Shown: positions 13,835 to 26,536 of the stretch, one piece after another
Numbering within the stretch: the stretch's first letter is position 1
Layout: each line of letters opens with the position of its first letter
Source: an uncultured virus (IMG/VR IMGVR_UViG_3300027805_000007)
Taxonomy: Duplodnaviria > Heunggongvirae > Uroviricota > Caudoviricetes
IMG/VR virus record: IMGVR_UViG_3300027805_000007
Reading direction: 5' to 3' (one strand)
DNA length: 36,586 nucleotides
Program-made: the position numbers and the translations under genes
Notes under the pieces: generated by a model
Told to the model about the DNA's origin: nothing
Seen by the model: the letters and a program-made list of their open reading frames with translations, nothing else
Database searches by the model: none

Positions 13835-13931
13835 TTATCCACAGGGTACTCCATACCCCATAAGGGTTTGCTGGGTTATCCACAGCCCCCCCTGTGGATA
13901 TCCTGTGGATACTGTGGAACATTGTGGAACA
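13835..13931. promoter_or_regulatory. Cluster of six DnaA-box-like 9-mers
   Basis: TTATCCACA at 13835 and 13876 (perfect). Reverse copies: TGTGGATAT 13893, TGTGGATAC 13904, TGTGGAACA 13913 and 13923. Confidence 0.75.
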
Positions 13932-13970
13932 TTGGGTTAGGGGCGCCTAACACCCGTAAGGCTCACCTAA
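13932..13970. promoter_or_regulatory. Two tandem IdeR/DtxR-like boxes
   Basis: TTGGGTTAGGGGCGCCTAA and ACCCGTAAGGCTCACCTAA, each 14/19 to TWAGGTWAGSCTWACCTWA, 20 bp apart. Confidence 0.5.
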
Positions 13971-13972
13971 CA

Positions 13973-14020
13973 TGTGACGATCGTCACACTCATTGTTACA
14001 ATGTCGTGACATTCGTCACA
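13973..14020. promoter_or_regulatory. Two CRP/GlxR-type boxes
   Basis: TGTGA-CGATCG-TCACA (13973-13988, perfect) and CGTGA-CATTCG-TCACA (14005-14020). Confidence 0.7.
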
Positions 14021-14421
14021 AAGCCTTGACAAGCCCCCACCTCATATGCCCTCGCTTCAGGATGCGTTCTAAGAGGAGCAGGGGCGTTTTCAAGTAAATA
14101 TGCATTTTCAGGAATTAAACGCTTCCTGAGGCTTCTGATCAACCTAGAAATGGGGCTATGAGCCTTACTGGGTAAGGGTTTGCGGGGTATCGGTAGGTAT
14201 ATAAGACCCTCCACAATCGCCCCAGTTGCTATCAACCTCCTCCCGTCTCAAAATCGCCCTACGCCTCTCAGAACGGCTCCTAATGCGTCTCAGGGCATTT
14301 CCCAGTATTCATTGGAAACCTGCATTTCCTCCCTCTCTACTCCCTCCATCCGATGGATGGCTGTCGCTTTGGGCGCCCTTTTCCAGCCCTCTGACCGCCG
14401 ATCCCCCGCTGGAGGAGGCTC

Positions 14422-14483
14422 AAAAGAATTTAAAGAAATTGTTCAGAAACTATTGACAGATGTACACCCCATGTGCCTATGCT
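14422..14483 (+). promoter_or_regulatory. Candidate early promoter (A-rich UP tract, TTGACA, TATGCT)
   Basis: TTGACA at 14453-14458 and TATGCT at 14478-14483; the 19-nt spacer is atypical. Confidence 0.4.
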
Positions 14484-14539
14484 GGGGGTGGAGGCGCTAG
14501 TCCCCTCCGCAGGTTCCTTGACAAGTGGCAGGTACGGCA

Positions 14540-14563
14540 CGCAGGCTTCGCCCTGCGCTTTTT
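14540..14563 (+). terminator. Hairpin plus U-tract (possible attenuator/terminator in the early leader)
   Basis: CGCAGG-CTTCGC-CCTGCG-CTTTTT. Confidence 0.45.
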
Positions 14564-14604
14564 GCGTTCCTGCCCTCAGAATCAAACATGGTTCAAAATT
14601 CCTC

Positions 14605-14738
14605 AGCGTCACGGGCGGGCTTCGGCTTGCTCGTGGCGCTCAATGAGCGCTGGGGACACTCCCCCTGCTCCAGCGCTGATTGAGCGTCACACACGCTCCG
14701 ATGGCACACAGCCTTCGCAGTCCTGAGGAGGACACACC
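14605..14738 (+). repeat. Structured intergenic element type B (tandem long hairpins plus SD hairpin)
   Basis: AGCGTCACGGGCGGGC-TTCG-GCTTGCTCGTGGCGCT; second stem at 14637-14686; GTCC-TGAGGA-GGAC. Confidence 0.7.
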
Positions 14739-15164
14739 ATGAACATCAAAGATGAGCAATTCAGCAACTTGATCAAGTACAACGATCACGGTCAGGCTCA
14801 ATACAGCCCTGAGGCTGTAGCACTTCGCTTCGCTGGAATCTTGGCTGACATCACCAAGCGCAAGGCTTCATCGGCAGACCGAGCACTATGGGCTTCAGTC
14901 CCTCAGATCGGCGCCGATGCCAAGCGCTTGGACATCGTCAAGGACTTCAGCATTCGCTGTGCCGAAAAGGGATACATCAGTGACCTACTCGGTTACGGGG
15001 ATCTTGGCGGGCAGGTCGGCGTTGTCACGGAAGTGCGGGAGATCCGCAAGCGTGACGGTCGTACGGCGGTGGATGTTGAGATCGTTTTCTTCAACCACAC
15101 GACTATTGGCAAGTACCGCAGTGACTCAGCCAAACGGCGCAAGTTGCAATTCATCAAGGGCTGA
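14739..15164 (+). CDS. Hypothetical protein
   Basis: GAGGAGG SD, ATG start. Confidence 0.85.
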   Translation: MNIKDEQFSNLIKYNDHGQAQYSPEAVALRFAGILADITKRKASSADRALWASVPQIGADAKRLDIVKDFSIRCAEKGYISDLLGYGDLGGQVGVVTEVREIRKRDGRTAVDVEIVFFNHTTIGKYRSDSAKRRKLQFIKG

Positions 15165-15172
15165 CACAGCCT

Positions 15173-15257
15173 CCCCGCACGACTCGGTCGTGGGCTTCAA
15201 TGCCAATGCGGGACTACTGGCAACCGCCAGTTACAACGACCCGAGGAGGTCAACACC
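15173..15257 (+). repeat. Structured intergenic element type A, copy 1
   Basis: CCCGCA CGAC-TCG-GTCG TG GGC-TTCAAT-GCC AA TGCGGG AC, then a hairpin, then GACC-CGAGGA-GGTC. Confidence 0.85.
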
Positions 15258-15788
15258 ATGACATACGACGCAAACTGGGGTAACACCCCTGCCTACAAGG
15301 CTCATGTGGAAGCCCACGGAAGCGGTGACGGGTTCACCAACGCCAACGGTTATCCAAAGGAGCCTGTCAACTCCATCATGTGGGCGATGTTGGGAACTGG
15401 TGTCAGTTCAATCACCGAGAAGAACATCTCGGAGGTGTACGCACGCTTGAAGTTCCACGAGATCGTCTTCAACAATGGTGTGTGGGGTCAGCGATACATC
15501 GGAGTAGATCCGACCAATGAAGCCCTCTCGGTCAACTGGGAGAACTACACGCTGACGCCTGACATGGTGGCGCAATGTCTGAGTTTGAGCACCAACAATT
15601 CAACTGAGTCACGCAGTGCGTGGGTCAAGCGAGTGGTGGCTTACATTCAGAACGACCGCTACTGCACCAAGGCGAAGGAGTTGTACTTCGGCAAGTCAAT
15701 GACGCCGACCAAGTGCATTCAACACGCACTGGACGGTTGGAAACTGGAGTACGAGGCAAGCGTTGAGGTGCTCAGTCACGCAGTGTGA
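15258..15788 (+). CDS. Hypothetical protein
   Basis: GAGGAGG SD, ATG start. Confidence 0.85.
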   Translation: MTYDANWGNTPAYKAHVEAHGSGDGFTNANGYPKEPVNSIMWAMLGTGVSSITEKNISEVYARLKFHEIVFNNGVWGQRYIGVDPTNEALSVNWENYTLTPDMVAQCLSLSTNNSTESRSAWVKRVVAYIQNDRYCTKAKELYFGKSMTPTKCIQHALDGWKLEYEASVEVLSHAV

Positions 15789-15798
15789 TTGAGTTCTT

Positions 15799-15885
15799 CC
15801 CCCCAGCGGTTCAGCCGTGGCGATTCAATTCGCACTGGGGACTAGCGGAGCGAACGCTCCGTGAATATGCCTGAGGAGGCACACC
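15799..15885 (+). repeat. Structured intergenic element type A, copy 2
   Basis: CCCCAG CGGT-TCA-GCCG TG GCGA-TTCAAT-TCGC A CTGGGG AC ... TGCC-TGAGGA-GGCA. Confidence 0.9.
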
Positions 15886-16098
15886 ATGATTAAGAGGGAA
15901 CACGGAAGTAATGCATACCGAGCACATTGCAACGGGTGCAAAGCAACTGGAGTCCACACCTACACAACGGTGACATCGTTGATAGAGGACATGACCCGCA
16001 AGAATCCATTCACAGGCAACTGGAGATTCGTGCCGTCATCAACCACAAGGGCACAGCGAGCCTTGTGCCCAAGTTGCGTCAAGTACAAAGTGCGTTAA
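15886..16098 (+). CDS. Small zinc-finger protein (CxxC...CxxC)
   Basis: CNGC and CPSC motifs; SD present. Confidence 0.75.
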   Translation: MIKREHGSNAYRAHCNGCKATGVHTYTTVTSLIEDMTRKNPFTGNWRFVPSSTTRAQRALCPSCVKYKVR

Positions 16099-16116
16099 GT
16101 AATCCCGCAACGCATT

Positions 16117-16200
16117 CCCCCAGCGACTAGGTCGTGGCTCTTCAATGAGCACTGGGGACTGTGAGCGACCGCTCACTACAACGACCTGAGGAGGTCAACC
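16117..16200 (+). repeat. Structured intergenic element type A, copy 3
   Basis: CCCCAG CGAC-TAG-GTCG TG GCTC-TTCAAT-GAGC A CTGGGG AC ... GACC-TGAGGA-GGTC. Confidence 0.9.
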
Positions 16201-16521
16201 ATGGACAGCACATCAACACCTGATCAAGTAGCACTTATGTTTCTTGACTGGCAGATCAAACAGATGGAGGACAGACTTCGGTCGCTTAACTACATCGGAA
16301 TTGTCTCCGATTACGCCAAGTTCTTTGCCGAACTGCTCACCCAACTGGAGCCAGTCACGATTGATGCGACCAACGAAGACGCCGATTGGAGGATCAATTG
16401 GAGCCTTCCGTTCGCCACGCAGAAGTTGAATGACTTCAGCAAAGAGTTCACGGAACTTTACACATTGCGTAAAGCCAAGCGTGAGATCTTGAAGCACATC
16501 GCAAGCATTGAGCGTGAGTGA
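16201..16521 (+). CDS. Hypothetical protein
   Basis: SD and ATG start. Confidence 0.85.
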   Translation: MDSTSTPDQVALMFLDWQIKQMEDRLRSLNYIGIVSDYAKFFAELLTQLEPVTIDATNEDADWRINWSLPFATQKLNDFSKEFTELYTLRKAKREILKHIASIERE

Positions 16522-16544
16522 TCAGAAACTGAGTGAGTGAGTAT

Positions 16545-16633
16545 CCCCCAGCGCCTAGGGCGTGCCCGTTCAATCGGGACTGGGGACTAGCGACACGCCA
16601 GTGTCGTGAAGATAAGACCCGAGGAGGTCAACC
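16545..16633 (+). repeat. Structured intergenic element type A, copy 4
   Basis: CCCCAG CGCC-TAG-GGCG TG CCCG-TTCAAT-CGGG A CTGGGG AC ... GACC-CGAGGA-GGTC. Confidence 0.9.
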
Positions 16634-17173
16634 ATGAAAACATCAGACATCAAGCAGATCATTGCCAAGGATCCGAATGCAATATTCGTGATCAAGCAAC
16701 GCTTCGGTCGTGGCACGAGTTACGGATCAATCACGGAAGTGATTGAGCGTGAGGTTCCCGTGTACGACAACTACAGGCGGACAGGCACTCGCATTGAGTT
16801 CGTATTCGCTGTGACTCACCACACATATTTCCGTGGTTACTTGCGCAGTGAGGGTGCCAATGACAACCGAGAGCCTGTGTACGGCTTGGCAACTCGCAAG
16901 GTGTCAGCACGAGAGATCCAGTCTCACATGGCTCACTGGGAAGCGACCACCATTCAAGAATGGGTCGCTCAACAGGATGCCGAGGCGAAGGCTTACCACC
17001 AAGAAAAGATTGAGCGTGCTGGCTCCAAGCAACAGGCAGTCAATGGCATCATCCGACACATCAGTAGCCCAACGGTTACCGATGCCGAGTGGAACAAACT
17101 CAACGATGACCTCATGACTCTTCGCATTGAGACTCTGCAATTAATCAGTGAGAAGATCACATCACTTGTGTGA
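16634..17173 (+). CDS. Hypothetical protein
   Basis: SD and ATG start. Confidence 0.85.
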   Translation: MKTSDIKQIIAKDPNAIFVIKQRFGRGTSYGSITEVIEREVPVYDNYRRTGTRIEFVFAVTHHTYFRGYLRSEGANDNREPVYGLATRKVSAREIQSHMAHWEATTIQEWVAQQDAEAKAYHQEKIERAGSKQQAVNGIIRHISSPTVTDAEWNKLNDDLMTLRIETLQLISEKITSLV

Positions 17174-17184
17174 TGTGAGCGACT

Positions 17185-17268
17185 CCCCCGTGCACTTTAG
17201 GTGTGGCGTTCAATCGCAACACGGGACAAGGCATTCCCGCCGAAGTAAGCGACCTGAGGAGGTCAACC
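17185..17268 (+). repeat. Structured intergenic element type A, copy 5
   Basis: CCCGTG CACT-TTA-GGTG TG GCG-TTCAAT-CGC AA CACGGG AC ... GACC-TGAGGA-GGTC. Confidence 0.85.
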
Positions 17269-17649
17269 ATGAAAACAGCAACAACACTTACAGTCACCGT
17301 CCGACTGGATGCGGAAGAGTTCATGTCCGCAGTTCTCGGTTCGGGGTGGTTGGGATGGTCTTGGTGGGAGGCGTTCGGATACCTGAACGGCTACAGCGAT
17401 GACAATCTTCCAACTGACCCGAGTGAGAAGTTCATCTTGGTGGGTGTTGAGAACCCTGATCGTTACGATCGGGACACCTTCCCAGCACCAGCCAGCATCA
17501 AAAGCGCCAAGTTGTCAATGAATGACATCGCCATGGCGTACGGTGCGCTCGTGTCCCGTGGTTGGGATATCAACCACGAAGACCTTGACGCATGCGGTGC
17601 TGACAACATCATGCAGTACGCAGTGCTCGGTGACATCGTCTACGGGTGA
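17269..17649 (+). CDS. Hypothetical acidic protein
   Basis: Start moved to ATG 17269, which follows the repeated SD hairpin. Confidence 0.85.
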   Translation: MKTATTLTVTVRLDAEEFMSAVLGSGWLGWSWWEAFGYLNGYSDDNLPTDPSEKFILVGVENPDRYDRDTFPAPASIKSAKLSMNDIAMAYGALVSRGWDINHEDLDACGADNIMQYAVLGDIVYG

Positions 17650-17658
17650 GTGAGCGTT

Positions 17659-17749
17659 CCCCTAGCGCCTTGGGCGTGCCGATTCAATTCGGACTAGGGA
17701 CTAGCGACACGCCAGTGTCGTGAATACAAATACCTGAGGAGGTATAGCC
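17659..17749 (+). repeat. Structured intergenic element type A, copy 6
   Basis: CCCTAG CGCC-TTG-GGCG TG CCGA-TTCAAT-TCGG A CTAGGG AC ... TACC-TGAGGA-GGTA. Confidence 0.9.
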
Positions 17750-18040
17750 ATGAAATTCGGAATAGAAGACACAATTGCAAAAGCAATTCGCAGGCATGCG
17801 CACTTTGATTCCATGTCACCAAGAAGTCTCGGAGTCTGGCGGGTGATGCACCATGAGCGTGCACATATCGCTCTGTGGATGCTGTGGCAATCACTTGCGG
17901 ATCAACTCGGCATGGATGACGCTGTAATCGTTGACTGCCGAACGGCAGAAGAAAACAGCGCATTCTTGATCAAGTGCGGTATCAGTCCTGATGTCGTGCG
18001 AGACATCGTCACCGATGAAGAAAATTGGGGTTCTTACTAA
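17750..18040 (+). CDS. Hypothetical protein
   Basis: SD and ATG start. Confidence 0.8.
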   Translation: MKFGIEDTIAKAIRRHAHFDSMSPRSLGVWRVMHHERAHIALWMLWQSLADQLGMDDAVIVDCRTAEENSAFLIKCGISPDVVRDIVTDEENWGSY

Positions 18041-18046
18041 CCAATT

Positions 18047-18132
18047 CCCCCAGCGCTTTAGGCGTGACCGTTCAATCGGTACTGGGGACTGTGAGCAACC
18101 GCTCACTACAAAATACCTGAGGAGGTATAGCC
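18047..18132 (+). repeat. Structured intergenic element type A, copy 7
   Basis: CCCCAG CGCT-TTA-GGCG TG ACCG-TTCAAT-CGGT A CTGGGG AC ... TACC-TGAGGA-GGTA. Confidence 0.9.
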
Positions 18133-18453
18133 ATGAGTTATCAACTGACCGACTGGGATCTAGAACAGATCACTGACACACTGGACATGTATGAAGCGGG
18201 TTCCGTAATGGAGTACTCGGGTCGTGCGATGTATGGCGCTCAATGCCTCGGCATTGTGACCGAAGATGTGGCATCAACATTCTTGATCCTCGGATCGGCA
18301 CTCGCTGACTTGGGCAGTAAAGGTCAAGCCCTGACAAGGGCACTTCTTTACGATGTGCGTCAAGACAGCATGGGTCGTGATGAAGCCGTTGTCTACTTCC
18401 CATCCATCACAATGCCAGCAGGCTATGTGGAGGAGGACGAGGACAATGACTAG
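18133..18453 (+). CDS. Hypothetical acidic phage protein (YSGRAMYG...DSMG motif)
   Basis: SD and ATG start; motif is familiar from small phage proteins. Confidence 0.85.
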   Translation: MSYQLTDWDLEQITDTLDMYEAGSVMEYSGRAMYGAQCLGIVTEDVASTFLILGSALADLGSKGQALTRALLYDVRQDSMGRDEAVVYFPSITMPAGYVEEDEDND

Positions 18454-18664
18454 CCCAGTCGTAATTGGCAAAGTGATGGACGATGGTGCGTTGGTGTGCC
18501 TTGTGTGCGCCGACTACTACCAAGCCGAGTCACTTCGTGAAGGTGAGACACTGGAGTTCGCTGAGGCGTACGACATCGGATACCCCGATGGATACACCTG
18601 TGCGACATGCGGTGATGCGTGGTACCCCGAGGGGTACGACCACTCAGTTGATCACAGTGCGTGA
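18446..18664 (+). CDS. Small acidic zinc-finger protein
   Basis: CLVC...CATC; start ATG 18446 overlaps the upstream gene. Confidence 0.75.
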   Translation: MTSPVVIGKVMDDGALVCLVCADYYQAESLREGETLEFAEAYDIGYPDGYTCATCGDAWYPEGYDHSVDHSA

Positions 18665-18670
18665 TCGGGA

Positions 18671-18777
18671 GCATCACGGGTTCGCCCGTGGTGCCCTCAC
18701 AGTGCATCGGCGTTGTGTCGGTGCATTGTGAGGGCATACAATTGCCCGTTCAACTAACAGACCCGAGGAGGTCAACC
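18671..18777 (+). repeat. Structured intergenic element type B
   Basis: GCATCACGGG-TTCG-CCCGTGGTGC; CCTCACAGTGCATCG...CGGTGCATTGTGAGG; GACC-CGAGGA-GGTC. Confidence 0.85.
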
Positions 18778-19032
18778 ATGGATGCAACTATTCACAAAGT
18801 AACTGGGTTTCGGATTGAGAAAACTGGTGACTCACGACTTCACACGATTGATCTCGTGATTGAGTACGAAGACTTGGCGTTCAGCCGTCCCCAGTGGGAG
18901 CAGGACAAAGAGTCATTCGGTTACGCAAAACTGGAGTCCACGATCACGCTCTTTATCAGTGACACCGCTGACATTGACACAGTGTTATGGAAGGCAATCG
19001 CAGAACTCACTTCCCAACTCGCCAATGCGTGA
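18778..19032 (+). CDS. Hypothetical protein
   Basis: Start moved to ATG 18778 after the SD hairpin. Confidence 0.8.
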   Translation: MDATIHKVTGFRIEKTGDSRLHTIDLVIEYEDLAFSRPQWEQDKESFGYAKLESTITLFISDTADIDTVLWKAIAELTSQLANA

Positions 19033-19049
19033 GTAAGTAGCAGTGGGCA

Positions 19050-19159
19050 GTCATGGCGCAAGCCATGGCGTGCTCGGAGTGCACTGATCCCCCATCGGTG
19101 CATTCCGAGGACGCAAGTCCATTCAGTACAACAAAACAGAATCTGAGGAGGTTCTTACC
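19050..19159 (+). repeat. Structured intergenic element type B
   Basis: GTCATGGC-GCAA-GCCATGGC; CTCGGAGTGCACTGAT-CCCCC-ATCGGTGCATTCCGAG; GGAC-GCAA-GTCC; AATC-TGAGGA-GGTT. Confidence 0.85.
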
Positions 19160-19885
19160 ATGGGTGCAATAACACCAAAGCAACAGGCATTCATTCGCAC
19201 GATGCTCTTAGAGCGTGCTTCAACACTCGGTCTTGATGAGGCTGGTGTTGACCAGTACATCATTGATCAGAAGTTGAATGAGTTGTCCAGCAAGTCAGCA
19301 TCGTTCGCCATTGACGCAATCAAGAAGATTGAGGTCAAGCGTGTGGGCACTGACCACTTGCCTAAGGCAGAGCGCACCATCGTCAACAAGTATGCGAACC
19401 CGTGCACATTGTGCGGGCATCCTGTACCTGTCGGTGCTGGTCACGCATTGCTCATCAGTGGCAAGTGGCAGACATTCCACAAGGCTGGTGAATGCTCATC
19501 GGAGCCTGTTGCTCGTCCAGTGACGGTGACCAACGAACTCTTCGGCACACTTGCCGATGGGTTCTACGCACTGTCATCAACTGGCGCCAACGATCTCGTG
19601 TTCTACGCAGTGAAGACCAACAAGGGCGTGCATAACGCAAGCCTCAAGGGTCAGCGTGCGATCTACATGGTCGTGGGTGGTCATCGTGACGAGCGACTAC
19701 ACGGTGAGCGTGCAGTGAACGCTGTGAAGCGTCTACTTGCGCTCAGCGATCAAGAACGCATGGATGCACAGGCACTGTACGGTCAAGAGATCGGGCGGTG
19801 TGGTGTGTGCGGGCGTCACTTGACCGATGAGGTCACACGCAAGCGTGGCATCGGCAACGACTGCGCAAAGCGATTGGGCTTCTAG
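19160..19885 (+). CDS. DUF6011-like zinc-binding protein
   Basis: C-terminal RCGVCGRHLTDEVTRKRGIGNDCAKR; internal NKYANPCTLCG. Confidence 0.75.
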   Translation: MGAITPKQQAFIRTMLLERASTLGLDEAGVDQYIIDQKLNELSSKSASFAIDAIKKIEVKRVGTDHLPKAERTIVNKYANPCTLCGHPVPVGAGHALLISGKWQTFHKAGECSSEPVARPVTVTNELFGTLADGFYALSSTGANDLVFYAVKTNKGVHNASLKGQRAIYMVVGGHRDERLHGERAVNAVKRLLALSDQERMDAQALYGQEIGRCGVCGRHLTDEVTRKRGIGNDCAKRLGF

Positions 19886-19891
19886 CCCGAG

Positions 19892-19993
19892 GATGTCACA
19901 CCGCAAGGTGTGGCGCCCTCACAGCACATCGGGCAACTGATGTGTTGTGAGGACGCAAGTCCACTAACAATTACCTGAGGAGGTAAACAGACC
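19892..19993 (+). repeat. Structured intergenic element type B
   Basis: GTCACACC-GCAA-GGTGTGGC; CCTCACAGCACATCGG-GCAA-CTGATGTGTTGTGAGG; GGAC-GCAA-GTCC; TTACC-TGAGGA-GGTAA. Confidence 0.85.
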
Positions 19994-21517
19994 ATGAATA
20001 CACAACTAGAAGGACTGAGTGCATTGCTATCGGGGCTTGATCGTGTTGCGCCAGCAATCACTGCTGACCCATCACTCCTTGCTCTTAGTAGCGCTCACGA
20101 TGGTGAGGTCGCTGTAGATCTCGCTCAACCTCTCTTCCCGTTCCAGCGTGCTGGCGTGGCGTATGCAATCAAGCAACGCCGTGTCATCATCGGTGACGAG
20201 ATGGGGCTGGGCAAGACTCCGCAGGGCATCGCAGTGGCTGTGCAGGCTGTCAATGAGAAGCACAAGGTGCTTGTCGTGGTGCCTCCGTCATTGCGCACCA
20301 ACTGGGTTCGCTCATTCAAGCAGTTCGCACCGTGGCTCTCTGTAGCCGTGGTGAAGGGCAGTCGTGTCGGTGCCATACCTAAGGCTGATGTGGTGATCAT
20401 TGGTGACAGCAATGTTGACCTGTGGTCACTCAAGTTGGCTGGCAAGTTTGGAGCGCTCATCGTTGATGAGGCACACCGTGCGAAGAATGCGAAGTCAGGT
20501 CGCACTAAGGGTATTGCATACATCGCCAAGTCAATTCCGACTGAGGGGTATGTGGTATTGCTCAGTGGCACCATCATCGTGAATCGTCCAAGCGAACTCG
20601 TTGCTCCGCTGTCAATCATTGACAGACTGGACAGAGGGTTCGGTGGACGCAACGCATTCCTGTTTCGTTACTGTGATCCAATCCACAATGGATGGGGTTA
20701 TGTGTACAACGGAGCCAGCAACACCACTGAGTTGAACGACAAATTGCGTGGCATCTGCTATGTGAGGCGTAACAAGTCAGATGTGTTGAAGGAACTCCCA
20801 GCGAAGCGCCGTGCTCAAGTGGCGGTAGAGATCACAGAAGATGATCTCGCTACATACCGTCACGCCGAGAATGACTTCCGTGACTTCGTCATCGCCAATG
20901 GCGGTGCCGAGGCATGGCAGAAGGCATCCAAGGCTGAGGTGATCACTCGCCTCAACGCACTGCGCAAGTTGCTCGGTATCGCCAAGATCCCGTATGTGGT
21001 TGAGCATGTAGAAGAACTTGTCGCTCAAGGCGAGAAGGTCATCGTGTTCGCACATCACCGAGATGTCATCGCAGGCTTAGCCAGTGCTCTTAACAAGCAC
21101 GGCGTAGTCAAGGTGGCTGGCGGTCTTACCGATGAGCAGAAGCAGGAAGCAGTTGACGCATTCCAACAAGGTGACGCCAAGGTGTTCATCGGACAATTCA
21201 CAAGTGCTGGTGTCGGTCTTACATTGACCGCATCATCGCATGTGGTGTTCGCTGAAGTGCCATGGACACCAGCGGAAGCAGTGCAATCAGAAGACCGTGC
21301 ACACCGCATCGGTCAAGACAACGCAGTCGTTGCGTGGTGGTTGTTGGCTGTAGATGACACAAGCGAGATCCCAACAGTGGACGATCGCATGTGGGCACTA
21401 CTCAACGCCAAGCACGAGACGGTATCGGCTGTCTTGACAGGTCACGGTGAAGACATGGGTGCAGAGGGTGGAAGCATTACGCAAGCCCTCATTGACGGGA
21501 TCGTTGGTAACGGATAA
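19994..21517 (+). CDS. SNF2-family (SMARCAL1/HARP-like) helicase/translocase
   Basis: GDEMGLGKT, DEAH, LSGT, KVIVFAHH, GVGLTLT, QSEDRAHRIGQ. Confidence 0.95.
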   Translation: MNTQLEGLSALLSGLDRVAPAITADPSLLALSSAHDGEVAVDLAQPLFPFQRAGVAYAIKQRRVIIGDEMGLGKTPQGIAVAVQAVNEKHKVLVVVPPSLRTNWVRSFKQFAPWLSVAVVKGSRVGAIPKADVVIIGDSNVDLWSLKLAGKFGALIVDEAHRAKNAKSGRTKGIAYIAKSIPTEGYVVLLSGTIIVNRPSELVAPLSIIDRLDRGFGGRNAFLFRYCDPIHNGWGYVYNGASNTTELNDKLRGICYVRRNKSDVLKELPAKRRAQVAVEITEDDLATYRHAENDFRDFVIANGGAEAWQKASKAEVITRLNALRKLLGIAKIPYVVEHVEELVAQGEKVIVFAHHRDVIAGLASALNKHGVVKVAGGLTDEQKQEAVDAFQQGDAKVFIGQFTSAGVGLTLTASSHVVFAEVPWTPAEAVQSEDRAHRIGQDNAVVAWWLLAVDDTSEIPTVDDRMWALLNAKHETVSAVLTGHGEDMGAEGGSITQALIDGIVGNG

Positions 21518-21598
21518 TCGTGGGCGCTGTAGCGCTTCATGGTCAGCGTTACAAGCGACAATCGGTGCACTCTTGTCCTCACGGGAGCCACCACAGTT

Positions 21599-21701
21599 CA
21601 TCACGGGCGCAAGCCCGTGGTGTTCTGACAGTACATTGACACACCGTTGATGTACTGTCAGAACATCACCCGATGTTCATTCAAGACCTGAGGAGGTCAC
21701 C
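21599..21701 (+). repeat. Structured intergenic element type B
   Basis: CATCACGGGC-GCAA-GCCCGTGGTG; TTCTGACAGTACATTGA...TTGATGTACTGTCAGAA; GACC-TGAGGA-GGTC. Confidence 0.85.
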
Positions 21702-21917
21702 ATGTACAACTTAAATATCACTCTCAACGGAGGCATTGATCGCCGTGGATCCGAACTGGACATCCTGTACCAGTTGGTGCGAGACGGCATGGAAGCGATT
21801 CACAACCGACTCGGTGACGATGGCATCTATCCATGGGGTTCTCTTGAGCAGTATCTCGCTGTAGAGGACAAGGTCATTGGCGCTCTCAGCAAGATCTGTG
21901 ACAAGAACGGCTTCTAG
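21702..21917 (+). CDS. Hypothetical protein
   Basis: SD and ATG start. Confidence 0.8.
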   Translation: MYNLNITLNGGIDRRGSELDILYQLVRDGMEAIHNRLGDDGIYPWGSLEQYLAVEDKVIGALSKICDKNGF

Positions 21918-21923
21918 AGAGAT

Positions 21924-22007
21924 CCCCCAGCGCTACAGGCGTGCGGATTCAATTCCGACTGGGGACAAGGCAATACCGCCGAAGTAAACAAAGCCTGAGG
22001 AGGCACC
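21924..22007 (+). repeat. Structured intergenic element type A, copy 8
   Basis: CCCCAG CGCT-ACA-GGCG TG CGGA-TTCAAT-TCCG A CTGGGG AC ... GCC-TGAGGA-GGC. Confidence 0.9.
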
Positions 22008-22247
22008 ATGAAAGTAAGTCACGCAATTAAATTATTGAGTGAGATCAATCCTGACGAAGAGATCGCTATCTCTTGGTGGGAAGCAAACCTGTTCACCATT
22101 GGTGACAATGATGAAACATTGTCGGCAGATTCAGAAGAATGGCTCAGGGCTGTTGAAGTGTTTGACGCCAACGGTGGTTACGACAGCGTCAACCAAGATG
22201 TGTGGACATACCTCAATTACGACATCACAGAACAAGGAGAGTTCTAA
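22008..22247 (+). CDS. Small acidic hypothetical protein
   Basis: SD and ATG start. Confidence 0.8.
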   Translation: MKVSHAIKLLSEINPDEEIAISWWEANLFTIGDNDETLSADSEEWLRAVEVFDANGGYDSVNQDVWTYLNYDITEQGEF

Positions 22248-22534
22248 TGAGCAATATCGGAACACCAATTGGTGCATGGGCAATCATCCAGTGGAAGGAC
22301 ACGCAGGACGAAAGCGAGGTGTACATCTCGTTTGGCACATGGAATGAGAACGAGTGGAACGGCGAGTACGACTCGCTGGGCAACCGAGACGATGAGGTCT
22401 TCTTCTACTGCGAAGGCGGAGAAGAGGAACTCAAGTCACTCGTAGGCAACAACGGCGAAGACTTCAATGTCTTGTCGTACGACATTGACTACAAGATCCC
22501 ATTCGTGCTCGCTGACATGGAGGTAGAGCAATGA
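22247..22534 (+). CDS. Small acidic hypothetical protein
   Basis: TAATG coupling and AAGGAG SD; start moved to 22247. Confidence 0.8.
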   Translation: MSNIGTPIGAWAIIQWKDTQDESEVYISFGTWNENEWNGEYDSLGNRDDEVFFYCEGGEEELKSLVGNNGEDFNVLSYDIDYKIPFVLADMEVEQ

Positions 22535-22788
22535 GCAAGGTCATGATCGGCACTGGGTTGTTAGTTGACGACCACCATGGCGTGTACAGCGCCATGGAAG
22601 CGTGCAGGATTGCACGAGAACTTGGGTGGGATGGGCGCCAGCCCACCGACATTGAGGACTCGTGGTACCAAGAACAGGTAGCCACGGAATGGCTGAATGA
22701 CCAAGTCGCTACTGACGGTCACTCATTCGGCTGGCACGAAGGCGGATACTTCTACATGCCACAGACATGGTGGGAGGATGTTGCCTGA
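22531..22788 (+). CDS. Small acidic hypothetical protein
   Basis: ATGA overlap and GGAGG SD. Confidence 0.8.
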   Translation: MSKVMIGTGLLVDDHHGVYSAMEACRIARELGWDGRQPTDIEDSWYQEQVATEWLNDQVATDGHSFGWHEGGYFYMPQTWWEDVA

Positions 22789-22790
22789 TC

Positions 22791-22907
22791 GGGGCATCAC
22801 GGGCTTCGGCTCGTGGTGCTCTCACAGCACATAAATTCTGTTTGTGTGTTGTGAGGGTACCTAGTACCCGATAAATTAGTTAATCCCTAAAGACCTGAGG
22901 AGGTCAG
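22791..22907 (+). repeat. Structured intergenic element type B
   Basis: GGGCATCACGGGC-TTCG-GCTCGTGGTGCTC; CTCACAGCACATAAA...TTTGTGTGTTGTGAG; GGGTAC-CTA-GTACCC; GACC-TGAGGA-GGTC. Confidence 0.85.
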
Positions 22908-23267
22908 ATGATACAACCAGTAATCAAAATGTCTGTTGAAGAATGGGAGGCAAAGTTCAAGCCTGTCAACAATCACCTAGATGACAACGCATCGTGGTCA
23001 GACGATGATGGCAACGGCATCATGTTTGAAACATACGGTGCCGAAGTTGACCATGTGTTTGATCAGCCATTGCATTACACATGGACATATGTGGACGGCG
23101 AGGAAGGCACATACATCATCGCTGGACGACACATCGTTAACCGCATCGGTTATTTCATAACTGAGAACCAGTGGGACGATGACTTCAACACCAAGTACGA
23201 AATTCAAGTAATCAGCAACGAAGACATGTACGAAACAGTGTTAGACCTTGAAGGAGGCAACAAATGA
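22908..23267 (+). CDS. Acidic hypothetical phage protein
   Basis: SD and ATG start; FETYG...WT..D...G.HIVNRIGYFITE motif. Confidence 0.85.
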   Translation: MIQPVIKMSVEEWEAKFKPVNNHLDDNASWSDDDGNGIMFETYGAEVDHVFDQPLHYTWTYVDGEEGTYIIAGRHIVNRIGYFITENQWDDDFNTKYEIQVISNEDMYETVLDLEGGNK

Positions 23268-23473
23268 AAACAATCAATGTGGCAGTAGGAGACGAAGTAG
23301 AAGTATCCGTGCAGATCTCTCCGATAGAGACATTTGACTACTCAGGAATCGTCTCACGAATCAGCGACACCGAGTTGTCAATGTGGACTAGCGACAGCCC
23401 ATACGACACCTACGAGAACGAGCGTGAGATTGACATCGCACTCTCAAAGATCATCGCAGTGGATGTGTTCTGA
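23264..23473 (+). CDS. Small acidic hypothetical protein
   Basis: ATGA overlap and GGAGG SD. Confidence 0.75.
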   Translation: MKTINVAVGDEVEVSVQISPIETFDYSGIVSRISDTELSMWTSDSPYDTYENEREIDIALSKIIAVDVF

Positions 23474-23673
23474 TGCAGAGCGTCATGGAATATTTCAATC
23501 GCACGGGAGAGACTCCAACAGCGGTGATCCTGTGTCACCATGACTTCCGTCCAGCGCCTGACTTACCTCTGAATGTGTGGAGGTGCGTCAAGTGTGCTGA
23601 GAACGGCTGGGACAGTCGGCAAACTCAATTCGCACCATGCAATGGCAACTGCCGTTGTGGAGGCGAGCAATGA
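23473..23673 (+). CDS. Small Cys-rich protein
   Basis: TGATG coupling; several Cys motifs. Confidence 0.6.
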   Translation: MQSVMEYFNRTGETPTAVILCHHDFRPAPDLPLNVWRCVKCAENGWDSRQTQFAPCNGNCRCGGEQ

Positions 23674-23921
23674 TCCTCGGTGGTTACCCAGTAGTGCGCA
23701 GGGACTTGGTGGAGGCGAATCTCTTGATCCCCTCTGTCAATACCAATGAGTACTACGGGCAAGAACAACTGTCCAAGATGAAGTACATCGGCAGTGTCAA
23801 TGAGCAGTTTGAAGATGACGACTCGGGCGCTTACATCAAGTTCTATGCACCTGAGGGTCATGTCGTATATCTGTACAACATTGACTTAGATTGGATTGAA
23901 ACATCGTTAAACGAGTCCTGA
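23670..23921 (+). CDS. Hypothetical protein
   Basis: ATGA overlap and GGAGG SD; start moved to 23670. Confidence 0.7.
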   Translation: MILGGYPVVRRDLVEANLLIPSVNTNEYYGQEQLSKMKYIGSVNEQFEDDDSGAYIKFYAPEGHVVYLYNIDLDWIETSLNES

Positions 23922-23937
23922 GAGGCTCGTACGAAAG

Positions 23938-24058
23938 GTGACATCAGCCTCGGCTGGTGTCACCCCGTGAGCACTTCCCTTGATCCGCCTTGGGAAGTGC
24001 TCACGGGGTGAAGCAACCTTGTAACACCTGTCAACAACAATGATCTGAGGAGGTCATC
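23938..24058 (+). repeat. Structured intergenic element type B
   Basis: GTGACATCAGC-CTCG-GCTGGTGTCAC; CCCGTGAGCACTTCCC...GGGAAGTGCTCACGGG; TGATC-TGAGGA-GGTCA. Confidence 0.8.
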
Positions 24059-24304
24059 ATGAATAAATGGAATGTAAGTATCTCGCTCCAAACGGGCGTG
24101 TATCTAGAGGGAGTCAATGCAAGTGACCCTGCAACATTGCTTGCGGGAGACCTCAACATAGAAGATGTTGTGGATGCATTGACTAAGCAACTGCTCTCAG
24201 GTCAAGCGTCATTGGACTGGGTAGTGGAAGAAGTGCAGACACTGGACGGTCGTACCGTTCGGGTTGACGATGAAGACCGTCTATGGCTCGGAGATGCAGT
24301 ATGA
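24059..24304 (+). CDS. Hypothetical protein
   Basis: SD and ATG start. Confidence 0.8.
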   Translation: MNKWNVSISLQTGVYLEGVNASDPATLLAGDLNIEDVVDALTKQLLSGQASLDWVVEEVQTLDGRTVRVDDEDRLWLGDAV

Positions 24305-24507
24305 GGCTCCGAGACATGATGGTCATGATGCTCGGCATTACCGACATGGAAGCCGAGCAAGTACACAACTTCTGCTGGGACACAGAGATGTATCCCGACA
24401 TGCAGAAGTTGAAGACTGAAGCCTCAGTGGCTGACATCAAAGCATTCTTCGCACATGCGTGCGATGAGTACCGCAAAGCAAACAACATTCAAACAAAGAG
24501 CCTTTAG
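24301..24507 (+). CDS. Hypothetical protein
   Basis: ATGA overlap and GGAG SD. Confidence 0.7.
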   Translation: MRLRDMMVMMLGITDMEAEQVHNFCWDTEMYPDMQKLKTEASVADIKAFFAHACDEYRKANNIQTKSL

Positions 24508-24515
24508 GAGGGCAC

Positions 24516-24650
24516 ATGGATAACGGATTCACCATTCACATAAGCGGTTACGCAATTGATTGCTTTGTGTTTTTTGTAATTGGGATCGGTTGGGGGATCG
24601 TATTAACACGGGCAGTAGACATGTTCAGAGACAGAAGGAAGGCAAAGTAA
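24516..24650 (+). CDS. Small single-TM protein (44 aa)
   Basis: Manual translation MDNGFTIHISGYAIDCFVFFVIGIGWGIVLTRAVDMFRDRRKAK; AGGAGG SD; TAATG coupling to the next gene. Confidence 0.7.
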   Translation: MDNGFTIHISGYAIDCFVFFVIGIGWGIVLTRAVDMFRDRRKAK

Positions 24651-24946
24651 TGGGAAGCATCAACGCACTAGGCATGGCGGAAGCCGTGGAAGACGGAATG
24701 ATTGAACTACGACAGGCGCTCGCATGGCACCTGCAAAGCAATCACTATCCACCAGTACCACTCAACATGGTTGATCCATGTGTGGTCGCAATTCAATTGG
24801 TCACCGAAGGTGAGCACGACACCAATGTCACGCTCCCCGATGGCATCATGTGGAGGGGTCAGCCAGTTGCTCCAGCGTGGGCAGTGGTGAATGCACACCA
24901 CCTTGACTCATTCATTGACACCAGCGAAGAGGAATGGGGCTTCTAA
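24650..24946 (+). CDS. Hypothetical phage protein (WHLQSNHYPPVP motif)
   Basis: Start moved to ATG 24650. Confidence 0.8.
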   Translation: MGSINALGMAEAVEDGMIELRQALAWHLQSNHYPPVPLNMVDPCVVAIQLVTEGEHDTNVTLPDGIMWRGQPVAPAWAVVNAHHLDSFIDTSEEEWGF

Positions 24947-25158
24947 TGATGATTGACACAGCCAACATCGTTGGTGCCAACGAGATCGCTGACAGGCTCC
25001 AACGAGCACACTCAACGATCGTGCACCAATGGAGAATGCGAAACATCGGATTCCCCGAGCCATGTCTTGTACTCAGTGCAGGACTGTTTTGGGAATGGGA
25101 CAAAGTAGAAGCATGGTTTAACGGAAGAATGAACAAGACCAAAAAGGAGACAGCATGA
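24946..25158 (+). CDS. AlpA/excisionase-like HTH DNA-binding protein
   Basis: IVGANEIADRL...VHQWR....FPEP...LSAGLFWEWDKVEAW. Confidence 0.75.
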   Translation: MMIDTANIVGANEIADRLQRAHSTIVHQWRMRNIGFPEPCLVLSAGLFWEWDKVEAWFNGRMNKTKKETA

Positions 25159-25358
25159 ACACCTATCAAATAACCGCACAGCGCTTAGGCAAAGTGAAGG
25201 CACACACATTCACCGATGTGGATGACAACGAAGCAACAATGACTGCAATCTTCTACATCCTTGATCAAGCAAAGACCAAGGACATGTGGGCAAAGGGTCG
25301 CATTGAATTGAAGAACACAACAACCAACGAGTTACTCAAAGTAATGGAGGCAAAGTAA
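25155..25358 (+). CDS. Hypothetical protein
   Basis: ATGA overlap and AAGGAG SD. Confidence 0.75.
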   Translation: MNTYQITAQRLGKVKAHTFTDVDDNEATMTAIFYILDQAKTKDMWAKGRIELKNTTTNELLKVMEAK

Positions 25359-26527: not shown

Positions 26528-26536
26528 GAACAGAAG

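What the first reader, a model, noticed from the sequence alone, without database searches (positions are those of the whole stretch)
15173..22007. Eight copies of a compact, strongly covarying three-way-junction element with an invariant UUCAAU loop, each placed between early genes
Seen: eight intergenic spacers (15173, 15799, 16117, 16545, 17185, 17659, 18047, 21924) share one 39-40 nt architecture: P1 (6 bp) - P2 (4 bp, 3-nt loop) - UG - P3 (3-4 bp, loop UUCAAU) - A/AA - P1' - AC, followed by a further hairpin and the SD hairpin. Stems covary. P1 is CCCCAG/CTGGGG, CCCTAG/CTAGGG, CCCGTG/CACGGG or CCCGCA/TGCGGG. P3 is GCGA/TCGC, GCTC/GAGC, CCCG/CGGG, CCGA/TCGG, ACCG/CGGT or CGGA/TCCG. UG, UUCAAU and AC never change, and G-U pairs in P2 point to the plus-strand RNA. 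Known: UUCRA is the tRNA T-loop motif, and acceptor/T-arm mimics are read by RNase P and RNase Z. Inference: this is a mini tRNA-like processing, stability or antitermination module (or a small ribozyme or protein-binding site) that divides the early transcript gene by gene. I do not recognise it as a named RNA family.
Basis: partly seen in the sequence, partly recalled or inferred. Interest (0 to 1): 0.92.

Follow-up and report, generated by a model that had tools for sequence, protein, structure and literature searches.

The report
Mini T-loop RNA junction between phage genes
Eight gaps between early genes of an uncultured lake phage of actinobacteria hold the same small three-armed RNA fold with a tRNA-type loop; it is a real, uncatalogued RNA family that probably marks where the long early message is cut and capped, though no experiment has tested this.

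Summary
Exactly eight + strand copies lie at the stated coordinates. A covariance model scores them at 54-72 bits, and the next best site in the window scores 11 bits.

The fold is P1 (6 bp), P2 (hairpin), UG, P3 (3-4 bp with a 6-nt loop), A, P1', AC. It recurs in 95 IMG/VR contigs. Of 76 distinct sequences, 69 pair perfectly and 9 of 14 pairs show double changes.

The same pattern in 596 Gb of bacterial genomes gave 31 stretches, about chance level. One of them pairs at every free position but scores only 26 bits. Rfam and ARAGORN find nothing.

One correction: across the family the loop is UUCRAU, not an invariant UUCAAU. That matches the tRNA T-loop consensus UUCRA.

- The strand from the loop to the 3' end has a fixed length.
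- The upstream stop codon lies a median of 7 nt before the element.
- A further hairpin starts 1-2 nt after AC in 87 of 100 contexts.
- Relatives permute the gene cassettes at these modules.

Best reading (about 0.4): a tRNA acceptor/T-arm mimic read by host tRNA-end nucleases, which punctuates and caps the early mRNA. No transcript-end data were available.

The scan found this element before on other DNA (e1-5990655, e1-6022450, e1-6022479).

The parts
15173..15214 (+). Element copy 1: conserved 5' C, P1 CCCGCA/TGCGGG, P2, UG, 3-bp P3 GGC/GCC with loop UUCAAU, AA, then AC
   Evidence: 54 bits
15799..15842 (+). Element copy 2: P1 CCCCAG/CTGGGG, P3 GCGA/TCGC
   Evidence: 67.1 bits
16117..16159 (+). 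Element copy 3: P1 CCCCAG/CTGGGG, P3 GCTC/GAGC
   Evidence: 68.5 bits
16545..16587 (+). Element copy 4: P1 CCCCAG/CTGGGG, P3 CCCG/CGGG
   Evidence: 71.7 bits; the minimum-energy fold gives the junction
17185..17227 (+). Element copy 5: P1 CCCGTG/CACGGG, 3-bp P3 GCG/CGC, then AA
   Evidence: 59.7 bits
17659..17701 (+). Element copy 6: P1 CCCTAG/CTAGGG, P3 CCGA/TCGG
   Evidence: 72 bits
18047..18089 (+). Element copy 7: P1 CCCCAG/CTGGGG, P3 ACCG/CGGT
   Evidence: 71.7 bits; the minimum-energy fold gives the junction
21924..21966 (+). Element copy 8: P1 CCCCAG/CTGGGG, P3 CGGA/TCCG
   Evidence: 66.4 bits
15215..15260 (+). Leader after copy 1: hairpin P4 starting 1 nt after AC, spacer, SD hairpin, ATG of the 176-aa ORF
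15843..15888 (+). Leader after copy 2: P4 hairpin, spacer, SD hairpin, ATG of the 70-aa ORF
16160..16203 (+). Leader after copy 3: P4 hairpin, spacer, SD hairpin, ATG of the 106-aa ORF
16588..16636 (+). Leader after copy 4: P4 hairpin (about 16590-16607), SD hairpin (about 16616-16629), ATG at 16634
17228..17271 (+). Leader after copy 5: short P4 hairpin, spacer, SD hairpin, ATG of the 126-aa ORF
17702..17752 (+). Leader after copy 6: P4 hairpin, spacer, SD hairpin, ATG of the 96-aa ORF
18090..18135 (+). Leader after copy 7: P4 hairpin, spacer, SD hairpin, ATG of the 106-aa ORF
21967..22010 (+). Leader after copy 8: short P4 hairpin, spacer, SD hairpin, ATG of the 79-aa ORF

Best explanation
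The element is a cis-acting RNA in the long early mRNA of a lytic actinophage: a miniature mimic of the acceptor-stem/T-arm half of a tRNA.

Inferred structure:
- P3 carries a true T-loop (UUCRA plus one nucleotide).
- P3 stacks on P1, giving a helix of fixed length that ends in an unpaired C...A and a 3' C.
- The small P2 hairpin presents an invariant G, preceded by a purine, to the T-loop, much as the D-loop G18-G19 does in tRNA.

Inferred function: host enzymes that recognise a tRNA by its elbow and measure to the acceptor end (RNase Z-like and/or RNase P) cut at the invariant AC and/or 5' of the element. The upstream cistron keeps a compact 3' cap. The downstream cistron starts 1-3 nt before hairpin P4, which acts as a 5' cap. 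One operon thus becomes separately stabilised gene-sized messages. As a by-product, the repeated modules act as recombination joints that shuffle the gene cassettes.

Shown: the fold, its conservation pattern, its placement and the cassette shuffling. Inferred: coaxial stacking, the loop-loop contact, cleavage and the enzymes involved.
For: 1. The structure is real and phage-restricted. There are 8 window copies at 54-72 bits against 11 bits for the next site. Of 76 distinct IMG/VR sequences from 95 contigs, 69 pair perfectly at positions the pattern left free. Covariation exceeds 500 of 500 shuffles. All 35 long viral records searched carry it.

2. T-loop rule. With the loop unconstrained, the 64 folding members show UUCAAU (53), UUCGAU (9), UUCGAA (1) and UUCAAA (1). 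Three further family-like strings show UUCAAU (2) and UUCGAU (1). Only the position equivalent to R57, and rarely the extra sixth nucleotide, varies.

3. Ruler-like constancy. The loop-to-GGG segment is 8+3 nt in 76 of 76 distinct sequences, although 7 or 8 was allowed. The 5' side of P3 varies between 3 nt (37) and 4 nt (39). Of 29 distinct chance hits in genomes, 10 used 7. RNase P, RNase Z and CCA-adding enzymes measure from the tRNA elbow along this stack (passages of PMC4919913).

4. Invariant unpaired nucleotides lie at both ends of the proposed stack and in the P2 loop: C(-1), U23, G24, A39, A46, C47 and G19. G19 was not imposed in the first scan.

5. Placement. The stop codon of the upstream ORF lies 4-24 nt before the element in 94 of 94 instances, with a median of 7. 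The next start codon lies a median of 43 nt after AC. Hairpin P4 starts 1-2 nt after AC in 87 of 100 distinct contexts.

6. Positional equivalence. Six other gaps of the same operon hold 16-21-bp hairpins of the kind RNase III cuts in T7 early RNA (the T7 comparison is from my own knowledge).

7. Strand. All copies are co-oriented with the genes, and G-U pairs exist only on the sense strand.

8. Precedent. Plant-mitochondrial t-elements are tRNA-like signals for RNase P/Z at mRNA ends (abstract of PMC1920247).
Against: - No transcript ends were seen. The only RNA-library data were assembled contigs. One freshwater metatranscriptome contig (15784-15998) runs straight through copy 2, which fits unprocessed RNA or DNA carry-over.
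- ARAGORN and the Rfam tRNA model do not recognise the element.
- The loop has 6 nt, not 7. The helix has 10 Watson-Crick pairs, not 12; the count of 12 layers needs an inferred G-A pair and a C-A apposition.
- The first P1 pair is C-G and the 3' tail is AC-N, not the RCCA that helps bacterial RNase P (own knowledge).
- T-loops also occur in RNAs unrelated to tRNA mimicry, so the loop alone does not prove mimicry.
- Seven of 100 contexts lack P4.
- The roughly 38-40-kb phages carry a single copy after the first ORF of the small-gene operon. This placement also resembles lambda nutR or HK022 putR.
Confidence: 0.4

Rival explanations
1. The element is a binding site (operator) for one protein, phage- or host-encoded. 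That protein would control all early messages together, for example to shut them off or to recruit a nuclease, as T4 RegA and RegB do on early mRNAs.
For: - About 19 of 42 nucleotides are invariant, including base-paired ones (CCC/GGG of P1, C-G of P2) that could have covaried. This suggests sequence-specific reading.
- The copies mark the early ORFan genes specifically.
- The small and large phage groups that carry the element share about a dozen proteins of unknown function, such as a DUF6378 protein and a 97-aa protein.
Against: - No RNA-binding or nuclease family was recognised among the 64 window ORFs scanned with PHROGs or the 29 scanned with Pfam.
- The element sits about 43 nt upstream of the start codon and does not overlap the SD, so direct translational repression is unlikely.
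- The T-loop rule and the fixed helix length are explained more simply by tRNA-type recognition.
- The invariance of CCC/GGG is partly imposed by my search patterns.
Confidence: 0.2
2. The element is a self-sufficient protective fold with no cleavage factor. As a compact junction locked by a T-loop/P2-loop contact, it would block exonucleases (RNase J 5'-3', PNPase 3'-5') and keep the untranslated gap structured, so that RNase E and Rho cannot load. This compares with REP-type stabilisers or viral xrRNAs.
For: - All conserved unpaired nucleotides can be assigned to tertiary contacts.
- The whole 90-100-nt gap is structured: junction, P4 and SD hairpin.
- The stop-to-element spacing (median 7 nt) is about the shortest that lets a terminating ribosome leave the fold intact (combined with own knowledge of ribosome footprints).
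- No dedicated partner gene was found.
Against: - Ordinary hairpins do this job in six other gaps of the same operon, so it is unclear why a sequence-constrained junction would be needed.
- The invariant flanking C and AC lie outside the fold and are better explained as a recognition or cleavage site.
Confidence: 0.2
3. The element is primarily a DNA-level recombination joint that makes early-gene cassettes mobile. It would work either by homologous exchange between repeats (as with T4-type PeSLs) or as folded single-stranded DNA read by a recombinase (as with integron attC).
For: - Metagenome contigs join the window at or beside the elements. Examples are 17222 to 18085 and 16589 to 17725.
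- Relatives carry the same cassettes in permuted order, with breakpoints in the intergenic modules. One relative has the order A, D, B, F, E, G.
- Stops in all three frames precede 20 of 94 copies.
- PeSLs are a documented case of regulatory repeats that mediate modular shuffling (abstract of PMC2839356).
Against: - Simple homologous recombination needs no conserved three-helix covariation, no T-loop rule and no fixed spacing to the stop codon, SD and start codon.
- No recombinase was detected in the window.
- The single-copy phages cannot shuffle with one repeat.
- Shuffling is better read as a consequence of repetition.
Confidence: 0.07
4. The element is a processive antitermination RNA that modifies the transcribing RNA polymerase, as HK022 put does.
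For: In complete 38-40-kb phages the single copy follows the first ORF of the small-gene operon next to a divergent region. This position is like nutR or putR (own knowledge).
Against: - The scan found no terminator-like sites beyond chance in the operon: 14 found against 11.5 +/- 3.8 expected.
- Eight copies in 7 kb are unnecessary for a processive modification.
- P4 has no U-tract.
- The fold is unlike the two-hairpin put RNA (own knowledge).
Confidence: 0.05
5. The element is a new small self-cleaving ribozyme that cuts the early transcript between genes.
For: - About 14 conserved unpaired nucleotides surround a three-way junction, a number similar to hammerhead cores.
- It lies between genes in tandem arrays.
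- An earlier scan note (e1-5973622, unchecked) reports self-cleaving ribozymes at equivalent positions in another phage group.
Against: - The junction strands are only 0, 2 and 1 nt long, which leaves little room for an active site.
- Most conserved nucleotides sit in loops typical of tertiary docking.
- No Rfam ribozyme model matches even at E up to 10.
Confidence: 0.05

Closest known systems
Plant-mitochondrial t-elements and the mitochondrial tRNA-punctuation principle (Forner et al. 2007, PMC1920247; abstract read)
   Same: Both are tRNA-like structures without decoding function that sit at mRNA borders in polycistronic transcripts. Both are proposed signals for RNase P and/or RNase Z that define 5' and 3' mRNA ends.
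   Different: The t-elements are larger tRNA-derived folds in organelles, and their ends have been mapped. This element is a 41-42-nt junction with no anticodon arm, a 6-nt loop and a 10-bp stack. It occurs in a bacterial virus, in arrays of up to 8, and no ends have been mapped.
RNase III processing hairpins between early genes of phage T7/T3
   Same: Both are structured elements in the gaps of a long early phage operon that cut it into gene-sized, end-protected messages. The same window has six gaps with 16-21-bp hairpins of that kind.
   Different: The longest helix in the element is 6 bp, too short for RNase III. Its conserved T-loop and junction imply a different reader.
PeSL cassettes of T4-type phages (PMC2839356, abstract read; PMC4122927, search listing only)
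   Same: Both are repeated regulatory modules that flank small non-essential early genes, and recombination between the modules shuffles those genes.
   Different: PeSLs consist of a sigma-70 promoter plus a terminator stem-loop acting at the DNA/transcription level. This operon shows no promoter-like or terminator-like sites beyond chance, and the conservation here is that of a folded RNA.
tRNA T-arm / T-loop motif, and tRNA-like domains of tmRNA and bacterial Y RNA (PMC4201824, search listing only; T-loop review cited within PMC4919913)
   Same: The loop is UUCRA closed by a short helix whose 3' strand runs on into a terminal helix. A second loop offers a purine-G dinucleotide, like D-loop G18-G19.
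   Different: The loop has one nucleotide fewer. There is no D stem, no anticodon arm and no CCA. The element is embedded in mRNA rather than being a stable small RNA.
Stoperators of cluster A mycobacteriophages and start-associated sequences of cluster K (own knowledge; SAS paper PMC3203893 named in note e1-5973892, not read)
   Same: Both are oriented repeats in short intergenic gaps of actinophage genomes.
   Different: Those are 13-17-bp DNA words with no compensatory base-pair changes. This element is defined by three covarying helices.

Membership tests
Any Rfam 15 family | Match to a curated covariance model at its gathering score | tested here: not met
   There were 0 matches in the whole window. 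At E up to 10 over 15150-22020 there were 10 weak matches, none overlapping an element.
tRNA | Cloverleaf with anticodon arm, detectable by ARAGORN or the Rfam tRNA model | tested here: not met
   ARAGORN found 0 genes in the window and 0 in 18 related loci, which include 5 whole records of relatives. There was no tRNA hit at E up to 10.
T-loop motif | Five-nucleotide consensus U-U-C-R-A: positions 1, 2, 3 and 5 fixed, position 4 a purine | tested here: met
   With the loop unconstrained, the 64 folding members have UUCAAU (53), UUCGAU (9), UUCGAA (1) and UUCAAA (1).
T-loop motif | U1-A5 reverse-Hoogsteen pair and a base intercalated between positions 4 and 5 | not testable with these tools
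   This needs a 3D structure or chemical probing. The invariant G19, preceded by a purine in the P2 loop, is a candidate intercalator or partner, by inference only.
tRNA T-arm | Seven-nucleotide loop on a 5-bp stem with G53-C61 | tested here: not met
   The loop is 6 nt and the stem 3-4 bp. The closing pair covaries: G-C 43, C-G 27 and A-U 27 of 97.
tRNA-like acceptor/T-arm minihelix (t-element type substrate of RNase P/Z) | Continuous 3' strand from the T-loop to the helix end, of fixed length (12 nt in tRNA) | tested here: inconclusive
   The length is fixed in 76 of 76 sequences. It is 11 nt to the last G and 12 nt to the invariant A. Only 9-10 of the layers are Watson-Crick pairs; the rest are inferred.
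tRNA-like acceptor/T-arm minihelix (t-element type substrate of RNase P/Z) | Cleavage by RNase P 5' of the helix and/or by RNase Z after the discriminator | not testable with these tools
   Only assembled contigs of RNA libraries were available, with no read ends.
RNase III processing site (T7 type) | Roughly 20 bp of near-continuous double-stranded RNA | tested here: not met
   The longest helix of the element is 6 bp. The other hairpin modules of the operon have 16-21 bp.
PeSL (promoter-early stem-loop) | Sigma-70 promoter plus an effective terminator stem-loop in each repeat | tested here: not met
   Over 13900-28100 there were 8 promoter-like sites against 10.9 +/- 3.9 expected, and 14 terminator-like sites against 11.5 +/- 3.8 expected. 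None of the listed sites lies in an element or its P4 hairpin; one minus-strand terminator-like site (16629-16616) lies on the SD hairpin after copy 4.
PeSL (promoter-early stem-loop) | Recombination between repeats shuffles the flanked genes | tested here: met
   Contigs join at the elements, and relatives carry the cassettes in permuted order.
Known small self-cleaving ribozymes (hammerhead, twister, pistol, hatchet, HDV-like) | Match to the family's model or core | tested here: not met
   No ribozyme family appears among the matches up to E=10. Self-cleavage itself is not testable here.
Integron attC | Neighbouring integron integrase, and a two-armed imperfect palindrome with extrahelical bases | tested here: not met
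   No integrase or recombinase family was found among the 64 ORFs scanned. The fold is a three-way junction, not a single bulged hairpin.

The most novel reading that the evidence does not exclude
The junction is a new class of small self-cleaving ribozyme. Its T-loop/P2-loop contact would clamp the three helices so that the invariant junction nucleotides cut the transcript at the invariant flanking C or AC. In that case these phages would punctuate their early operon with no protein at all.
Probability: 0.05. Interest if true: 0.95.

Novelty: new variant of a known kind. Interest (0 to 1): 0.7.

Why it matters
tRNA-shaped punctuation of messenger RNA is textbook biology for mitochondria, and it is known for a few nuclear long non-coding RNAs. 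I know of no phage operon, and no bacterial one, that is divided gene by gene with a dedicated mini tRNA mimic, and my five text searches found none.

If the reading holds:
- It shows a virus using the host's tRNA-end machinery to set the boundaries and lifetimes of its early messages.
- It gives a 42-nt portable element for cutting and capping synthetic operons in actinobacteria.
- It adds a very small natural T-loop junction to the set of RNA building blocks.

Whatever the function, this is a well-supported new RNA family. It has more than 100 distinct sequences in at least 95 viral contigs. It belongs to phages of abundant uncultured freshwater actinobacteria, and it marks the joints at which these phages exchange early genes.

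Tried and rejected
- **Known RNA families.** Rfam at gathering scores and at E up to 10 gave nothing on the elements. ARAGORN gave nothing.

- **Cultured relatives.**
  - Megablast of 15000-22200 found no match in 50,697 phage records.
  - Sensitive blastn of one module found no match either.
  - The helicase has at most 35.5% identity to any cultured phage.
  - The window's own assembly is not held. The nearest record, G001, carries the same copies.

- **Host origin.** The same 18-base pattern in 596 Gb of bacterial and archaeal genomes gave 31 stretches, about chance level. Fifteen reached E of 1 or less, and none scored above 26 bits. Only one (L168, 77% GC) pairs at every free position. 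I treat that one as probably chance, but it is unresolved.

- **Transcript ends.** The run search found 3 runs with small shares, all kept as contigs. Laying them gave no table of molecule ends. No support either way.

- **Partner protein.**
  - PHROGs on 64 ORFs and Pfam on 29 gave no RNA-binding or nuclease family near the array.
  - Comparing four whole 38-40-kb records and one 97-kb record with the window listed shared proteins of unknown function, but I had no element-free control set, so no candidate can be singled out.
  - I did not fold or dock any protein.

- **Riboswitch-like alternative pairing** between P1 and the SD region, examined by eye. CCCCAG can pair with CUGAGG at 5 of 6 positions. 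However, P1 variants (CCCUAG, CCCGUG) do not covary with the SD, and the small phages use a different SD. Rejected.

- **Ninth copy at 14598-14662.** It scores 11.3 bits and folds into a different long hairpin. It is not counted.

- **Promoter or terminator reading.** The consensus scan is at chance level.

- **Literature.** Five full-text searches found no description of this element. Subscription journals and supplements were not covered.

Full report
**What the window is.** The window is 36.6 kb at 49% GC. It encodes two WhiB-like regulators, an SNF2-type helicase, a DpdA/TGT-like protein, a glycosyltransferase and many small ORFs without family. Its helicase is at most 35.5% identical to any cultured phage, with Arthrobacter and Thermus phages nearest. 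It has no DNA match in 50,697 phage records. Its nearest held relative is a 75-kb IMG/VR record. It is therefore an uncultured actinophage. The + strand from about 14.45 kb to 28 kb reads as one long operon of small genes, with promoter-like and terminator-like sites at chance level.

**Check of the observation.** A covariance model built from 77 family members gives these eight sites at 54-72 bits, with the next site at 11.3 bits, when every position of the window is scored. Single-sequence folding of two copies returns the junction, the following hairpin and the SD hairpin as the minimum-energy structure.

**Is it more than chance?**
- I scanned IMG/VR with a pattern that fixed 18 bases: CCC/GGG of P1, the outer C-G of P2, GUG, the hexaloop and AC. 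Three P1 pairs, three P2 pairs and all of P3 were left free.
- The scan returned 119 stretches in 95 contigs.
- The loci then held contained 76 distinct sequences. Of these, 69 pair at every free position and the other 7 miss one pair.
- On 77 aligned sequences, 94.8% of cells are paired against 74.3% in shuffles, and 0 of 500 shuffles reach this. Nine of 14 pairs change on both sides. Shifting the partner by one column drops pairing to 38-50%. P3 counts are underestimates, because MAFFT misplaced the gap of the 3-bp variants.
- Negative control: the same pattern in 596 Gb of bacterial and archaeal genomes gave 31 stretches, near the number expected by chance. Fifteen reached E of 1 or less and none scored above 26 bits. 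Only one pairs throughout.
- The family is therefore real, and as far as these collections go it is confined to viruses.

**Distribution.**
- All 35 long viral records searched with the model carry it.
- The four whole records of about 95-97 kb (99-100% complete) have 2-4 copies.
- Fragmentary records of 21-75 kb have up to 8 copies. The window's 8 equals the highest count seen.
- The six records of 35-40 kb that are at least 90% complete each have one full copy. In one of them a partial second match lies at the record's end.
- In the ten single-copy contexts read, the copy is again just after a stop codon and before an SD and start codon on the same strand.
- In the two records whose neighbourhood I laid out by eye (G012 and G009), it follows the first ORF of the small-gene block next to a divergent region.
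- No tRNA gene is present in the five whole records of relatives.

1. *Loop.* A second IMG/VR scan left the loop free. Sixty-four passed my fold filter, and three more family-like strings failed it by one P1 mismatch. Loops among the 64 are UUCAAU (53), UUCGAU (9), UUCGAA (1) and UUCAAA (1); the three others have UUCAAU (2) and UUCGAU (1). The remaining 43 strings are GC-rich chance hits. The loop thus follows the tRNA T-loop rule UUCRA.
2. *Fixed 3' strand.* The segment from the loop to GGG is always 8+3 nt (76 of 76), although 7 was allowed. The 5' strand of P3 is 3 nt (37) or 4 nt (39). Among chance hits, 10 of 29 used 7. The 3-bp form keeps the orphaned 3' nucleotide as a second junction purine.
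3. *Invariant or near-invariant unpaired positions*:
   - the C before P1;
   - U and G between P2 and P3;
   - A between P3 and P1';
   - AC after P1;
   - in the P2 loop, U (46 of 50), a purine (49 of 50) and an invariant G that the first scan did not impose.
4. *P2 loop pairing.* The pyrimidine formally paired with that G covaries instead with the neighbouring purine: C-G 48, U-A 30, U-G 9, A-U 2 and others 8, of 97. The G may therefore be free for a tertiary contact.
5. *Flanking variants.* Two distinct variants replace the flanking C...A by G...G together.

**Placement.**
- In 94 distinct instances with enough flank, the stop codon of an upstream ORF of at least 40 codons lies 4-24 nt before the conserved C. 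The median is 7 nt, and 68 instances fall at 4-8 nt.
- The start of the next ORF lies a median of 43 nt after AC, and 68 of 93 fall at 40-49 nt.
- In 100 distinct downstream contexts, a hairpin (P4) begins 1 nt (32) or 2 nt (55) after AC. Seven contexts have no hairpin.
- The P4 sequence differs between classes while pairing is kept.
- The module is therefore: stop codon, about 7 nt, junction, AC, 1-2 nt, P4, spacer, SD hairpin, start codon.

**Cassettes.** Contigs of other samples join the window at or beside the elements, for example 17222 to 18085 and 16589 to 17725. Relatives hold the same genes in permuted order, with breakpoints inside the intergenic modules. One relative has the order A, D, B, F, E, G relative to the window. 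Repetition of the module thus drives modular exchange, as described for PeSLs of T4-type phages (abstract of PMC2839356).

**Mechanism.** I read the element as a mimic of the acceptor/T-arm half of tRNA.
- P3 and its T-loop stack on P1 through the continuous 3' strand.
- Counting an inferred G-A pair at the junction and the C...A apposition at the end, the stack has 12 layers. This is the length of the tRNA acceptor/T-arm stack (own knowledge).
- The purine-G of the P2 loop may play the part of D-loop G18-G19.
- RNase P measures a fixed distance from the elbow along this stack, and RNase Z and the CCA-adding enzymes are likewise rulers that measure the tRNA to place their active sites (passages of PMC4919913).
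- A cut at or next to the invariant AC would leave the upstream cistron with a compact 3' structure placed as close to its stop codon as a terminating ribosome allows. The downstream cistron would be left with a hairpin 1-3 nt from its new 5' end. Both arrangements are known to stabilise bacterial mRNAs (own knowledge).
- Six other gaps of the same operon hold a tetraloop hairpin plus a 16-21-bp hairpin at the equivalent place. That is the kind of structure RNase III cuts in T7 early RNA. The two module types therefore look like alternative punctuation marks.
- Plant-mitochondrial t-elements are the closest documented parallel (abstract of PMC1920247).
- All steps after 'the fold exists and sits here' are inference.

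**Against this reading.**
- No ends could be mapped. Only contigs of three runs with small shares were available, and a metatranscriptome contig crosses copy 2 unbroken.
- The tRNA tools do not see the element.
- The loop is one nucleotide short, and only 10 layers are Watson-Crick pairs.
- The tail is not RCCA.
- T-loops also serve as plain tertiary modules in RNAs unrelated to tRNA.

The rivals are therefore kept with real weight: a protein operator, a self-sufficient nuclease-resistant or insulating fold, a DNA-level recombination joint, put-like antitermination, and a new ribozyme.

**Novelty.**
- There is no Rfam family.
- Five full-text searches found no description of the element.
- This scan met the same element before on other genomes (e1-5990655, e1-6022450, e1-6022479) and reached a similar reading. 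I formed mine before seeing those notes, and I took the identifier of the t-element paper from them.
  - the UUCRAU loop rule;
  - the fixed 3'-strand length;
  - the stop, P4 and start spacings;
  - the genome-collection negative control;
  - the single-copy small-phage context;
  - the explicit cassette permutations.

Noticed in passing
window 18665-18777, 19033-19159, 19886-19993, 21518-21701, 22789-22907, 23922-24058 (+): A second kind of intergenic module occupies the same position (stop codon to SD hairpin). It is a GC-rich hairpin with a UUCG or GNRA tetraloop, followed at once by a long hairpin. The long hairpin is 16-21 bp, has G-U pairs on the + strand, and gives fold z-scores of -6 to -7. 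Three of the modules share the word GACGCAAGUCCA or a close variant after the long hairpin. They look like RNase III-type processing sites.
   Followed up: partly
window 15238-15257, 15866-15885, 16180-16200, 16616-16629, 17251-17265, 17730-17747, 18113-18130, 21989-22004 (+) and the other gene starts of the operon: Almost every gene start of the operon has the same small hairpin, NNCC-UGAGGA-GGNN, which presents the SD (GAGGAGG) across its loop and 3' arm. The arm sequences vary (GACC/GGUC, UACC/GGUA, GCC/GGC).
   Followed up: partly
window 14598-14662 (+): The leader of the first gene contains a stretch resembling the 3' half of the element (GUG-GCGC-UCAAU-GAGC-G-CUGGGG-AC). It scores only 11.3 bits and folds into a different long hairpin. 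It may be a decayed or diverged copy.
   Followed up: partly
window 14440-14570 (+): Two TTGACA words and a hairpin with a U-tract (14540-14557, then CTTTTT) lie upstream of the first early gene, in the divergent region between the - strand and + strand blocks. This is a candidate early promoter region, possibly with a short leader transcript or attenuator.
   Followed up: no
window 31823-33259 (-), 27636-28001 (+), 30011-30427 (-): There is a 478-aa protein matching the PHROG family annotated as queuine tRNA-ribosyltransferase (DpdA-like, E 5.6e-33), which hints at 7-deazaguanine modification of the phage DNA. There are also two WhiB-like regulators.
   Followed up: no
window 14400-19600 versus L041/L042, L043-L045, L073-L075: Relatives carry the same early-gene cassettes in a different order and number, with breakpoints inside the intergenic modules. 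Twenty of 94 element copies are preceded by stop codons in all three frames within 33 nt.
   Followed up: partly
L168:1501-1540 (-), a contig binned as Spirochaetota: This is the only one of the 31 stretches from bacterial genomes that pairs at every free position. It is 40 nt long, 77% GC and scores 26 bits. It is probably chance, but its neighbourhood was not examined.
   Followed up: no
L127:4038-4280 (-) and the equivalent ORFs in L128, L130, L131: In several 35-40-kb relatives, the ORF just before the single element copy is a conserved protein of about 60-80 aa. Its end reads ...F-x-x-A-C-G-L/F, either as the last residues or within the last nine. No homologue was found in the window.
   Followed up: no
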